Shown piece by piece: positions 10,101 to 21,400 of a stretch of DNA of 64,000 bases. Position 1 is the stretch's first letter; each line of letters begins with the position of its first letter. This stretch comes from Pocillopora damicornis (Eukaryota), in NCBI RefSeq assembly GCF_003704095.1, contig NW_020847747.1:124001-188000 (forward strand), in the 5' to 3' direction. The notes beneath the pieces are model-generated. The model searched no databases and was not told the origin of the DNA. It saw only the letters and a list, made by a program, of their open reading frames with translations. The position numbers were made by a program, and so were the translations under genes.

Positions 10101-11768
10101 CTCAACATCTATCATCTTTCTTGGGAATATTAACAAGTAAAGCAATAAAATTTTTCTGCAGATGGTGAGGGTGGCTCCAAGCAAACCAAACAATGCCCAG
10201 CTGTTGAGTTTATTCCAGACGAGCCTGGTGCAGGCAAATGTTCCTTTAGTCAACAATGCAGTAAGCTTGAATGTGTTGCAGAGGGAGATGGCCATAAATT
10301 AATTGCTGATTTTAAAGTGAGCAGATGTGGTAAATCTCTCGTGGCATCAGTAAAATTACAGCAGCCAGAGGAGGACCTAGACTGGTCTGAGAGGCTGAAA
10401 AATGGTGAAAAAGCTAAATTGCCTATTAAAGCCAGTAGTTTTACTGGAGGATTAGCAGTTTCTGATGCCAAATTGTTTGTCCAAGTTCATTTGAAGGAAA
10501 TGCAGGACAACAGAGTAAATTTTACAGTAAGTATTCCCAGAAAGATTAGGTTTAATATTTGCCTTCTCAACTACATGCATCCTACGGAATAGACCATTTC
10601 TGAATTCCAAAAGCCTCCCTTTTGAAATGAGGCCCAGTATGAGAACCCTCTTGCGACAACAAATTACATTTGCATGAGAATAATTTTTTTTTCGCTTCAA
10701 AAGCTTTGCACTTAGGTGCCTTTTAAAACAGAAGTTTTCTGTACCCAAAAAATGGCCTGTTGGAACCACAAAGTCATGGAATTTAAGGAAGTCATAACTT
10801 TTGAAACTTGGTATGTTTATTTTGTTAGGTCAGGATGACTGGGCATCTGACAGCCCTAGGTGAGACTGTGCAGGTGAATACTGTGCTGATACAAGGACAG
10901 ATAGCTGTATCATCTGTTGCGGACTGTGGTGAGTATCTTGACCACAACTCCTCCCCCTCCTCTCCTCCCAGGGGCAGCAGTCTTAAGTTTAACCTTAATG
11001 GGTATGTGCTACTAATCCAAGGGTGGATAAAGTATTTTTTAAATTGGGGGTGGGGGTGGATTTTGTCACCCCCAGGATACCTACTTGATGGTAATGTTAA
11101 CATCCATATGTGGTTTACTAAAAGTGACATTTTTTTTGTGGTGTGCATTGTATTAACTTTTCAGAAAATTTTGGCAGGGGGCATCTTAGATGGACCCCTT
11201 TTAAGTCTAACAGGGTGTGGTTTTTGGGTCTTTATACCCTAACATCAGTATGCATATTCCCCATACCGTTCTTTACACATTTCCTTAGGTGCTGACAGGG
11301 AGAATTTGTTTAACAATCAGGAGCTCTTCTTTAGTTGGTGATCATTTCCTTTATTCTTGTCATCTCGATGTGTGGCTCAGGGGTGAAATTGTAAGGAGAA
11401 AGTATATGTTAATCACTCTTTGGAGTCCAAGAGTTAAGACAATCTTCTTTTCTGAGAAATTTATATTAATTTACTATTCATCTTGCAGCGAGGATTTTAC
11501 TGTTAAAATGAGCGTGAACTCAACTCAGTTCCAATTTAATTAATTTTTTTATATCTCTCTTGTTGCTTCAGGTTCGTGGTTTAGTGAACAGTCAACAGCC
11601 GTGAAAGTTCTGGTGATTTTGGTCCCAGTAACCGCAGGGATTTTGCTGACTCTCACTGTTGTCTTTTGCTGTTGTAAAAGACGTCGTGATGGCACTCGCC
11701 TGTATGTCAACATATTTAAGTCCCGCAATGATGGCTATGGAATGCGACGTTTGTCTAATGAACTTTGA
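4139..11768 (+). CDS. Gene 2 of the family: three tandem ectodomains, ~510 aa
   Basis: Exons 4139-4196 (signal MAELQLLTAFLLVVVSTVQG), 6358-6686, 7340-7424, 7997-8328, 9336-9402, 10162-10526, 10829-10928 and 11572-11768. Total 1533 nt, open frame. TM VLVILVPVTAGILLTLTVVF followed by CCCKRRRDGTRLYVNIFKSRNDGYGMRRLSNEL*. Confidence 0.85.
5130..5631. mobile_element. Non-autonomous DNA element with subterminal aatgccgccctcaaata repeats
   Basis: Repeated motif at the left end and a related inverted end (..aaataaatatggta). Confidence 0.5.
6050..6260. mobile_element. ~200-bp TTAA-flanked MITE (piggyBac-like ends), about 12 copies in the window
   Basis: Ends ttaaccctttaactccc..gggagttaaagggttaa. Further full or partial copies at ~6922-7135, 7745-7954, 8430-8570, 9758-9964, 11233-11437, 34359-34561, 35018-35103, 40320-40480, 40561-40767, 41230-41440 and 43329-43536. 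Confidence 0.8.
8755..9268. repeat. Dispersed repeat; inverted partial copy at ~24590-24972
   Basis: Shared blocks gatttcagaccaaa, ccattttgaaatc and gaaatctgattggttg in opposite orientation. Confidence 0.65.
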
Positions 11769-18444: not shown

Positions 18445-21400
18445 TTAAATTTCGTTGACCAGCGGCTGCATCGGGACTTTGGTTTTGGTAGAGGTAGCCT
18501 CATCATAGGATGGCGGCATGACCTTAACATGGCCAGTGGTAGTGGCTCGCTTCCTCCTGCAGCAATAAGCCACGGTGATTGAAAACAAAACCAAGAACGC
18601 CACGGCACTTGATATTATAAGCGCCTTATACGGTGCGCGCAATTTTTTAAACCTGTTGATATGCCCTGAAAAATAAAAGAAAAAAGAAATTAGTATACTG
18701 AGGAAAAACCCCCTTGCCTCTTCGCGCAACGGTATCTTCACAGCGCGGAAGGCCAACAAGAATGAGACTGGAACGCATGGTTTCCTTCCCATCATCCCTT
18801 TCCATATACACCTTTTACGCGCTGTGTGCACTAGGCAGACGACTGGGAACAAGCCATGTGCCCGATTGAAACAAAACAACTTGTTTGGTTATAAGAAACT
18901 TACGTTTGTTACAGAAGTAAATCTGACGCTTTTCTGCAGCAAAAAGGAGACTTTGGGGGTATGCCGAAGTTTACATGCTGCGAAAGTCAGAACGGTCGAA
19001 TTTTCTTGAAATATTTGTGCAAATGATAAGTTTCAGCGCGCCTTTCAAGTAAACCTCTTCAGTAAATAAGTAAGATCCCTTTTTTAAACACGATGAGAAT
19101 AAGGGCATTTCATGCTTAAGGGGTTGTCTGTAACTAGCTACTAACCCAAATAACCTACAAGTAAAAGTGGATAAAATATATCAAACGAATAATCAGACTT
19201 AGAAGTACTTAGTAAATGACTTTGATAATACGTCGTGAAAAATTGAGCGCCCTCGCTCATGTTAAGAATTTGCGAGCGCTACTATGCGCCGAACAGGGTG
19301 CGCAGTTCATTGCTGGGGAATTCCTTTCGCAAAGTTGAAGAGTAACAAAATTTTGGACTCAAATTTAATTCAGGGGATAAGAAAGAGGACACAATAACAG
19401 TGTGGGCGTGGTTCTACTTTACCGGATAACAGGAATCTAACTTACACCCGCACACTACCATTTGAGGCTCCTCAATGGCTGGAATTTTTCCTTCAATGAG
19501 TGTTACTGTGTAAGGCTTCTTTGTCAATTCTGCCCGGCCTACCAGGTCAATCTAGTTGTAAAACAAGAATTATTGAACTTTGAAAATTTCACTCGAGATA
19601 TATAAACAATAACCTCCATTTGGCACGAAAATATTTTCGGATATTTGTCCGCGGACATCATCTGATCCGAGATGCGAAGAGTTTCCGAGAGTGAAGCTCG
19701 AGGAAAACTGCGAGCTTCGAGGAAAAGATAATGTTCAAGAACAACTACACGAGCACATTTTTGTGCCAAATGGAGACTAAATTAAATGTGTTTATCATCC
19801 TTTTTTCACCTGCAATGCGGGTGTAAAACGTAAGCAAACAGCTTTCTGTTTTGGGATATTGATCAAATGAAGCCTTTAAGTGCTACTGTGGTTCTTTCTT
19901 TATTCACTCCGAGCTTTCGCCGTTCTACGGCATCATCAGGGAGCATGATCCCTGATGATGCCGTAGAACGGCGAAAGCTCGGAGTGAATAAAGAAAGAAC
20001 CACAGTAGCACTTAAAGGCTTCATTTGATCAATATCCCACATCATTACGACATGCTACTAAAGGACACGTTCAAACGTTTAGCTTTCTGTTTGTTCGTTG
20101 GATGTTTACTTTTCAGTGTTCTGTGGTAGGACTTAATTAACAAACAAACATGTCGCTTGTTCTGTGACAATAGCTTAACGCTCTCTCATTTTGAATTGAA
20201 ATTTAATGAATGCTTTTATCGAAGTAGACGTATGCTTTGAAAACTGGGGAATATCACTTGGGGATGTCCTCAGGTATTCTTAGCGTTAGCTCGGGCATAT
20301 TCAATCACATGATGCGTTTATATCAATCGCGCGCGAGAAAAAATATCAGATGAATTTTAAAAATCAATGTACTTGACTTTAATATCAACTAAAAGAGAAC
20401 TTTTTAAGGGAGATGGGGCTGAAAAAGTTCTTCAAATGGAAATGAGAGTGCAGTTTACCTTGAAACTTAGGGTGCCATTATCTTCCGTCATTGCAACTCG
20501 AATGGAAGCATCAACTTTTCCGAATGGTAATCCTTTAATATCCAGTGGGAATCCGGGAACCTCAATTTCCTCTCCATTTTTTACCCTGGCCGACCAATCA
20601 AATCCAAGCTTCGGAACTGACATGATGACGTCAGCACTCATGGGATCATCCCATGTGTCAAAGTTCACAGTCACTGTGATATCCTCGCGACTGAAGGGAA
20701 TTGAACACGTGATTTGGTCGCAGTTGTAAGACGTGGCGTTACATTTGATAGGAAGAGGAAGATTGGGCACCAGTTCGAGACGACATTCGTCTTGCCAACC
20801 TGCGAAAAAAAAATCAGTTGATTGTGAATAATCAATGATAATCAATATTAAATATATGAAATTGTTTGAGAGCAAATAGGAAGAAGAGCATATGTGTTGC
20901 TTTTTTTTTTTTTNNNNNNNNNNNNNNNNNNNNNNNNNNNNNNNNNNNNNNNNNNNNNNNNNNNNNNNNNNNNNNNNNNNNNNNNNNNNNNNNNNNNNNN
21001 NNNNNNNNNNNNNNNNNNNNNNNNNNNNNNNNNNNNNNNNNNNNNNNNNNNNNNNNNNNNNNNNNNNNNNNNNNNNNNNNNNNNNNNNNNNNNNNNNNNN
21101 NNNNNNNNNNNNNNNNNNNNNNNNNNNNNNNNNNNNNNNNNNNNNNNNNNNNNNNNNNNNNNNNNNNNNNNNNNNNNNNNNNNNNNNNNNNNNNNNNNNN
21201 NNNNNNNNNNNNNNNNNNNNNNNNNNNNNNNNNNNNNNNNNNNNNNNNNNNNNNNNNNNNNNNNNNNNNNNNNNNNNNNNNNNNNNNNNNNNNNNNNNNN
21301 NNNNNNNNNNNNNNNNNNNNNNNNNNNNNNNNNNNNNNNNNNNNNNNNNNNNNNNNNNNNNNNNNNNNNNNNNNNNNNNNNNNNNNNNNNNNNNNNNNNN

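What the first reader, a model, noticed from the sequence alone, without database searches (positions are those of the whole stretch)
11572..18665. Paired-receptor-like tail swapping: PPxY versus YxN versus motif-less
Seen: genes 3 and 4 carry PPSYDEA. Gene 1 aligns there as MPSHRAR, so the motif is lost. Gene 2 instead carries LYVNI plus a second Tyr (GYGM). Genes 5 and 7 have Tyr-free Pro/Thr-rich tails. Established: PPxY binds NEDD4-family WW domains, pYxN binds the GRB2 SH2 domain, and YxxI can be an AP-2 signal. Inference: one ectodomain fold wired to different outputs (ubiquitin-dependent down-regulation, RAS signalling, raft anchoring).
Basis: partly seen in the sequence, partly recalled or inferred. 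Interest (0 to 1): 0.7.

Follow-up and report, generated by a model that had tools for sequence, protein, structure and literature searches.

The report
Coral membrane-protein array, diverged sorting tails
This is an old tandem array of coral single-pass membrane proteins with an unnamed outer domain; their short inner tails diverged in place rather than being swapped, the PPxY motif is conserved and likely recruits a ubiquitin ligase, and the proposed GRB2 tyrosine is missing from the same gene in more distant corals.

Summary
The 'paired receptor / tail swapping' reading does not hold. The window holds seven paralogous type-I membrane genes of a stony coral (NCBI names gene 1's protein Pocillopora damicornis); an eighth lies just upstream. 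Ectodomain and TM+tail trees give the same groups, so tails travelled with their ectodomains. Paralogous ectodomains are only 19-35% identical (53-65% among genes 5-7), and no window gene has an ITAM, an ITIM or a charged TM residue. PPSY is kept in 6 of 6 gene-3/4 orthologue rows, out to Acropora and Montipora, and those tails are better conserved than their ectodomains. Gene 2's YVN is in only 2 of 4 orthologue rows (Pocillopora, Stylophora) and its second Tyr in 1 of 4. Gene 1's His-for-Tyr is ancient (8 of 8). Distant deuterostome relatives carry classic [DE]xxxL[LIVM] motifs (6 of 9). Best reading: endosomal sorting tails, with NEDD4-type ubiquitination added in genes 3/4. The ~140-residue all-beta ectodomain matched no Pfam family or solved fold.

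The parts
591..1925 (+). Gene 1, coding exons 591-985, 1329-1434, 1702-1925 (signal-peptide exon not located in the window). Acidic Tyr-rich N-terminal stretch, one ectodomain module, TM, tail with MPSH and PMQRLIN.
   Evidence: P0002, 100% identical, NCBI model; RNA joint 1433/1701 and a contig carrying all three exons
1851..1871 (+). MPSHRAR: His at the position of the PY tyrosine; [LIM]P[ST]H in 8 of 8 gene-1 rows
4139..11768 (+). Gene 2, 511 aa: signal exon 4139-4196; three ectodomain modules (6358-6686 + 7340-7424; 7997-8328 + 9336-9402; 10162-10526 + 10829-10928); TM+tail exon 11572-11768
   Evidence: open reading by coordinates; RNA joints between the module exons; signal exon inferred from likeness to the Stylophora-cluster protein P0001
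11700..11714 (+). LYVNI (YxN / YxxPhi match); Tyr present only in the Pocillopora and Stylophora rows
11733..11759 (+). GYGM (second Tyr, not conserved) overlapping GMRRLSN, gene 2's version of the shared C-terminal motif (4 of 4 gene-2 rows)
13508..17238 (-). Gene 3, 258 aa: exons 17238-17181, 14846-14482, 14190-14061, 13731-13508; His/Lys/Gly-rich stretches in the ectodomain
   Evidence: three RNA joints
13562..13582 (-). Gene 3 PPSYDEA (PY motif); PMEPLVN follows at 13537-13517
   Evidence: Acropora orthologue PPSYHQA
18445..22684 (-). Gene 4, 241 aa: exons 22684-22627, 20799-20459, 19551-19446, 18665-18445
   Evidence: P0061 (NCBI model); RNA joints
18496..18516 (-). Gene 4 PPSYDEA (PY motif); PMQPLVN follows at 18474-18454
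   Evidence: kept in Stylophora, Montipora and an unnamed record
23570..25257 (+). Gene 5 (5' part in an N gap): exons 23570-23623, 23815-24015, 24378-24477, 25004-25257; long Cys cluster, Tyr-free tail ending PMQPMV
   Evidence: one RNA joint
26154..30070 (+). Gene 6: 210 aa; the tail stops right after the Cys/Arg run, and a gene-5-like tail sequence continues in another frame
31541..36132 (+). Gene 7: exons 31541-31616, 33760-33929, 34738-34938, 35149-35248, TM+tail exon ending 36132 (its start lies in an N gap); Tyr-free tail ending PMQPFVNEA
   Evidence: RNA joints

Best explanation
These are ancient paralogous type-I membrane proteins of a stony coral whose homologous tails diverged in place by substitution, deletion and truncation, and the tails likely act as trafficking codes rather than opposing signals: a likely palmitoylated cysteine cluster plus a shared C-terminal dileucine-like motif would route them through endosomes, and the conserved PPxY of genes 3 and 4 is predicted to add NEDD4-family ubiquitination and lysosomal turnover. 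Shown here: gene structures, splicing, tail homology, congruent trees, the conservation pattern, and WW+HECT genes in the genome. Inferred: palmitoylation, WW binding, ubiquitination of tail lysines, and adaptor binding by PMxPL[VI]. Genes 1, 2, 5 and 7 would be sorted without the PY step. Genes 0 and 6, with almost no tail, would stay wherever palmitoylation puts them. The ectodomains are so divergent, with gene-specific acidic or His-rich extensions, that they likely bind different lumenal or extracellular ligands.
For: Trees of 37 rows: genes 0, 1, 2, 3 and 4 each form one group in both the ectodomain tree and the TM+tail tree (supports 98/90, 99/96, 99/99, 84/78, 95/88). The same deep split (genes 1-4 versus gene 0, genes 5-7 and non-coral rows) has 99/97 and 100/99. 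Tails align colinearly. PPSY is in 6 of 6 gene-3/4 rows. Tail identity exceeds ectodomain identity in those orthologues: 65 vs 35% (gene 3, Acropora), 70 vs 39% (gene 4, Montipora), 78 vs 43%, 86 vs 76%. Gene 3/4 tails hold 4-7 lysines. WW and HECT exons lie together on one strand on contigs C685, C1135 and C3095. The C-terminal motif is in 23 of 37 rows, or 23 of the 28 whose tail is long enough, including the sea anemone Actinia. 6 of 9 multi-module TM relatives have a canonical [DE]xxxL[LIVM] (named ones are sea urchin, two sea stars and amphioxus). PY motifs bind NEDD4-family ligases and post-TM cysteines are proposed palmitoylation sites (PMC10531659, passages). Pro at -1 is common in AP-binding dileucine signals (PMC3418312, passages).
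Against: The coral C-terminal motif lacks the acidic residue at -4 that AP-1/AP-3 binding needs (PMC3418312, passages), so it is not a canonical dileucine signal. Its regular expression was written after seeing the alignment. Gene 2 has L-S and genes 5/7 have M-V or F-V in place of L-[VI]. 3 of 9 multi-module relatives lack the dileucine, and per-sequence shuffle rates for the six hits were 1-18%. The TM+tail partition is short (76 columns; 17 of 34 branches open), and genes 5-7 are unresolved in it. TM and tail are one exon, so a swap inside that exon is not fully excluded. No localisation, binding or modification was measured. The ligand is unknown.
Confidence: 0.6

Rival explanations
1. Paired-receptor system with swapped tails: one ligand-binding ectodomain wired to opposing or alternative outputs (NEDD4 down-regulation, GRB2/RAS activation, decoy).
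For: Tandem cluster with mixed orientation, one fold, and different tail motifs. Tail-less members exist (gene 0, gene 6). Genes 5-7 are 53-65% identical in the ectodomain. A cnidarian cluster with ITAM/ITIM tails exists (Hydractinia Alr; bioRxiv 2022.03.04.482883, abstract and outline).
Against: The genes that differ in motif (1-4) are 19-29% identical in the ectodomain, and each is closer to its orthologue in distant corals (35-71%) than to its neighbours. Trees are congruent. A clade of PPxY tails is rejected. No ITAM, ITIM or charged TM residue in window genes.
Confidence: 0.07
2. Sorting tails as in the best explanation, but gene 2 gained a working phospho-Tyr site (YVNI, GRB2 SH2 or AP-2 mu2) in the Pocillopora/Stylophora lineage only.
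For: YVNI is close to the pYVNV GRB2 optimum (recalled, no call). It is kept in Pocillopora and in 15 of 15 stored Stylophora-cluster sequences with this tail. YxN+hydrophobic arises in 3.9% of shuffles.
Against: The whole tail is 88% identical between these two genera, so keeping the Tyr says little. V-[ND]-hydrophobic is inherited, and the Tyr position is Met or Leu in L008 and L010. It is a single site in a 32-residue tail.
Confidence: 0.15
3. Shisa-like transmembrane adaptors: genes 3/4 bring a NEDD4 ligase to a partner membrane protein bound by the ectodomain, so the partner rather than the protein itself is degraded.
For: Same tail plan as Shisa proteins: signal peptide, TM, post-TM cysteines, PY motif (PMC10531659, passages).
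Against: The ectodomain lacks the Shisa C*C*CC*C*CC*C pattern, and none of 111 family members hit a Shisa Pfam model. There is only one PY motif per tail and only in some paralogues. No partner is known.
Confidence: 0.18

Closest known systems
Shisa and Shisa-like single-pass adaptors (PY motif, post-TM cysteines)
   Same: Signal peptide, one TM, Cys cluster after the TM, [LP]PxY in a short Pro/Thr-rich tail, divergent tails among paralogues.
   Different: Unrelated ~140-residue all-beta ectodomain; no Shisa cysteine pattern or Pfam hit; a shared C-terminal PMxPL[VI]N motif.
Endosomal/lysosomal type-I proteins sorted by acidic dileucine signals (tyrosinase, TYRP1 type)
   Same: Short tail with xxPL[LIV] near the C-terminus; deuterostome relatives match [DE]xxxL[LIVM] outright.
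   Different: The coral motif has Pro or Gly at -4, not Asp/Glu; the lumenal domain is unrelated.
Paired receptors (CEACAM, Siglec, SIRP, KIR, CD300) and the Hydractinia Alr cluster
   Same: Tandem cluster of single-pass proteins with one ectodomain type and different tails.
   Different: No near-identical ectodomains, no ITAM/ITIM, no charged TM residue, stable one-to-one orthology across corals, no Ig-fold match in the fold searches.
DUF4773 (PF15998)
   Same: Cys-containing extracellular domain; appears as an ESM Atlas look-alike (0.79 and 0.84).
   Different: 0 of 111 members hit the Pfam model; the genome's own DUF4773 match is on another contig and does not align with the family profile.

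Membership tests
Paired receptors | Encoded in one gene cluster | tested here: met
   Eight paralogues within about 42 kb of one contig
Paired receptors | Highly similar ligand-binding ectodomains (80-93% in Xenopus Ceacams, PMC5112662) | tested here: not met
   19-29% among genes 1-4; 53-65% among genes 5-7, which do not differ by signalling motif
Paired receptors | Opposing ITIM/ITSM versus ITAM or charged-TM members | tested here: not met
   No ITIM, ITAM or charged TM residue in window genes; ITSM checked by eye only
Paired receptors | Gene conversion or shuffling between ectodomain and tail exons | tested here: not met
   Congruent trees; AU test p 0.014. Genes 5-7 unresolved in the tail tree.
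Paired receptors | Shared ligand with opposite output | not testable with these tools
   Needs binding and signalling assays
NEDD4-binding PY-motif membrane protein (genes 3, 4) | Cytoplasmic [LP]PxY conserved in orthologues | tested here: met
   6 of 6 rows
NEDD4-binding PY-motif membrane protein (genes 3, 4) | WW-HECT ligase in the genome and acceptor lysines in the tail | tested here: met
   4-7 Lys per tail
NEDD4-binding PY-motif membrane protein (genes 3, 4) | WW binding and ubiquitination | not testable with these tools
   Bench assay needed
GRB2-docking adaptor (gene 2) | Conserved cytoplasmic YxN | tested here: not met
   2 of 4 orthologue rows; 2 of 5 with the syntenic Acropora gene
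GRB2-docking adaptor (gene 2) | Tyr phosphorylation and SH2 binding | not testable with these tools
   Bench assay needed
Shisa / Shisa-like | Cys-rich ectodomain C*C*CC*C*CC*C | tested here: not met
   Alignments show a different, sparser Cys pattern; no Shisa Pfam hit in 111 members
Acidic-dileucine-sorted membrane proteins | [DE]xxxL[LI] in the tail | tested here: inconclusive
   Canonical form absent from coral tails, present in 6 of 9 multi-module relatives
DUF4773 (PF15998) | Match to the Pfam model | tested here: not met
   0 of 111 at E<=0.05; remote homology not excluded (ESM leads 0.79, 0.84)
Immunoglobulin superfamily (Alr-like) | Ig fold | tested here: inconclusive
   Two confident models gave no Foldseek match at E<=0.001 and best VIA Z 6.4 and 5.9

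The most novel reading that the evidence does not exclude
An undescribed animal family of endolysosomal or phagosomal membrane proteins built on a beta module without a solved relative (single in corals and anemones, two or three copies in deuterostome invertebrates, many copies in giant mollusc proteins). Stony corals expanded it into a syntenic array that uses a graded tail code (PY kept, Tyr fixed as His, PY deleted, tail truncated) to give each cargo-binding ectodomain its own compartment and lifetime, possibly on the symbiont-holding vacuole.
Probability: 0.15. Interest if true: 0.6.

Novelty: new variant of a known kind. Interest (0 to 1): 0.28.

Why it matters
The tail logic itself is ordinary: PY motifs, post-TM cysteines and dileucine-like signals are common in animal membrane proteins, and paralogues often lose them. 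What remains of interest is the ectodomain module. It is unnamed, shared from cnidarians to echinoderms, hemichordates, amphioxus and molluscs, and had no Pfam or solved-fold match here. The array also offers a natural set of tail variants for testing a non-canonical PMxPL[VI]N sorting signal. If the proteins prove endolysosomal in coral gastroderm, they become candidates for feeding or symbiosis studies.

Tried and rejected
Pfam on 16 window exons, 8 full proteins and 111 family members: nothing above a curated cut-off, and only scattered single hits. PDB sequence search: best E 0.19. Fold searches: model 1 (260 aa, mean pLDDT 80.6) against PDB, VIA-wide and the viral library; model 2 (ectodomain only, pLDDT 81.5) against PDB and VIA-wide. 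No Foldseek match at E<=0.001; best Z 6.4 (rmsd 3.1, 61 aligned) and 5.9 (rmsd 3.2, 82 aligned, FAIM N-terminal domain). This does not show a new fold. DUF4773 lead rejected as membership. The UniRef label 'Integrin alpha-2 domain-containing' on P0002 found no support in Pfam or fold searches. Six long hits (P0097, P0110, P0114, P0149, P0178, P0214) were dropped as short repeated matches in unrelated-looking repeat proteins. NCBI models that fuse neighbours (P0064, P0062, P0049, P0324, P0326) were used only as evidence of gene order; gene 3 has its own spliced signal exon. Contig depth was not used to rank expression. No gene-6 joint appeared in the shown rows, which proves nothing. Complex prediction was not run: a PPxY-WW pair would pass by likeness to solved structures. 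Literature: identifier searches found 0 papers; 'coral + PPxY + transmembrane' gave 18 papers, 15 listed, none about these genes by title or abstract start; DUF4773 gave 3 listings. Supplementary tables were not searched and could list these genes. Earlier-findings look-ups returned nothing.
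Full report
Setting. The window is G000:C4382:124001-188000. The protein of gene 1 is held letter for letter as P0002, named by NCBI as a hypothetical protein of Pocillopora damicornis. Self-comparison found seven related genes between 591 and 36132, and an eighth (gene 0) about 3-6 kb upstream of the window. Searches of the genome with two family proteins returned matches only at this locus (9 of 11 and 4 of 8 scored candidates; lower bounds). Each gene has a signal exon, an ectodomain module split over two or three exons, and one exon that holds the TM helix and the whole tail. 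Gene 2 has three modules. RNA-library contigs show GT..AG joints for genes 1-4 and 7 and one joint of gene 5.

Observation. Every motif is present at the stated place. In 20,000 shuffles of each tail, PPxY arose in 1.0-1.5%, YxN in 17% and YxxPhi in 37%. The tail alignment shows one plan for the family: TM, Cys cluster, basic residues, a hydrophobic-x-V-x element, a Pro/Ser/Thr stretch that holds PPxY in some members, and a C-terminal [PG]-[ML]-x-x-[LFM]-[VIS]-[NDEH] motif. Gene 2's YVNI falls on the hydrophobic-x-V-x element, not on the PY position, which gene 2 has deleted.

Orthologues. For the trees I kept 37 rows: one representative per species or cluster with a TM exon. Near-identical alleles, single-exon fragments, fused gene models and multi-module deuterostome proteins were left out; the membrane-proximal module was used for multi-module coral genes. 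PPSY is in 6 of 6 gene-3/4 rows, including Acropora (PPSYHQA) and Montipora, and those tails are 65-86% identical where the ectodomains are 35-76%. Gene 1 has [LIM]P[ST]H in 8 of 8 rows (Pocillopora, Stylophora, Oculina, Porites, Acropora, three unnamed). The His is therefore old and maintained, not recent decay. Whether PY was lost or gained is open: an Acropora gene of the 5-7 type has PPAY, anemone rows have none, and the label needs 3 changes on the tail tree. For gene 2, Stylophora keeps LYVNI but reads GFGM. Two unnamed coral loci carry clear gene-2 orthologues (100/100 in the ectodomain tree; L010 has the same three modules). Their tails read VMVNF...KIGM and FLVDI...KIGM: both tyrosines are absent, while DG[TK]R and GMxRLS[ND]E are kept. 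The Acropora multi-module gene that follows the gene-1 orthologue also lacks YxN; its place in both trees is unresolved, so I count it separately.

Swapping and pairing. Genes 0, 1, 2, 3 and 4 each form one group in the ectodomain tree and in the TM+tail tree, and both trees share the deep split. Genes 5-7 group in the ectodomain tree (100/98) and are unresolved but not rejected in the tail tree (p-AU 0.36); a clade of all PPxY tails is rejected (p-AU 0.014). Ectodomain identity among paralogues is 19-35%, except 53-65% among genes 5-7. Paired receptors are defined by very similar ectodomains with opposing motifs, 80-93% in Xenopus Ceacams and kept so by gene conversion (PMC5112662, passages seen). 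No window gene has an ITAM, an ITIM or a charged residue in the TM. Limits: the tail partition has 76 columns and 17 of 34 open branches, and TM and tail share an exon.

The shared signal. The C-terminal motif is in 23 of 37 rows, or 23 of 28 once nine rows with short tails are set aside; the misses are the Acropora gene-1 row, Nematostella, Actinostola and two distant rows (pattern written after seeing the alignment). It resembles a dileucine signal with Pro at -1 but lacks the acidic residue at -4 (PMC3418312, passages). Multi-module TM relatives from sea urchin, sea stars, amphioxus and unnamed records carry a canonical [DE]xxxL[LIVM] in 6 of 9 cases; the Ptychodera row is among the misses. 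This is indirect support for an endosomal route. WW and HECT exons lie together on three contigs, so NEDD4-type partners likely exist. PY-NEDD4 binding and palmitoylation of post-TM cysteines are taken from PMC10531659 (passages).

Ectodomain. Two AlphaFold2 models give a confident all-beta module of about nine strands. It matched no Pfam family and no solved fold clearly. The ESM Atlas gave DUF4773 as a weak lead that sequence tests did not confirm. Related repeats occur in giant proteins, one named from a freshwater mussel. Gene 1 has an acidic, Tyr-rich N-terminal stretch and gene 3 a His-rich one, both kept in orthologues, which points to different ligands (inference).

Verdict. Tail swapping, paired-receptor logic and a conserved GRB2 output do not. 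The best-supported mechanism is sorting and turnover codes on anciently diverged paralogues (0.6). Papers: passages of PMC5112662, PMC10531659 and PMC3418312; abstract and outline of bioRxiv 2022.03.04.482883; all others as search listings only. Identifier searches found no paper; supplements were not examined. The GRB2 optimum pYVNV is recalled, not from a call.

Noticed in passing
L004 4133-7510 (G000:C4382, about 118,133-121,510, upstream of the window): An eighth paralogue (gene 0) whose tail ends a few residues after a long Cys cluster; this short-tailed type is conserved in Oculina, Montipora and unnamed corals.
   Followed up: partly
window 30031-30170: Gene 6 stops after a Cys/Arg repeat, while another frame continues with sequence alignable to the gene-5 tail: a likely frameshift in the repeat. 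Gene 6 has also lost both cysteines of an otherwise conserved pair.
   Followed up: partly
window 591-660 and 14846-14780, 14130-14061: Gene 1 begins with an Asp/Glu/Tyr-rich stretch (possible tyrosine sulfation, inferred) and gene 3 has His/Lys/Gly-rich stretches (possible metal binding, inferred); the N-terminal ones are kept in orthologues.
   Followed up: partly
window 13508-22684: Public gene models fuse gene 4 with gene 3 (P0064, P0062), and in Stylophora and Acropora gene 1 with gene 2 (P0049, P0324, P0326); RNA joints show gene 3 has its own signal exon, so these are likely annotation artefacts.
   Followed up: partly
P0323 (Acropora palmata): The syntenic multi-module gene has its modules in the reverse order relative to gene 2 (third-module-like first) and a different tail.
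   Followed up: partly
window 37636-37920 (-): An unrelated exon with a TM helix followed by a Cys pair and a Pro/Tyr-containing tail; no Pfam hit, no similarity to the array.
   Followed up: no
window 46500-59420: At least three copies of the 5' end of another gene type, two of them near-identical and facing each other around the N gap at 50656-50755, plus a 426-residue multi-TM exon at 58141-59418 without a Pfam hit.
   Followed up: no
window about 6050-6260, 6930-7135, 9740-9965, 11190-11440, 34360-34560: A short interspersed repeat in the introns attracts thousands of RNA contigs and dominates depth there.
   Followed up: no
L007 536-4486: A 1317-residue open frame, transposon-like by eye, lies just upstream of a gene-2 exon in an unnamed coral contig.
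   Followed up: no
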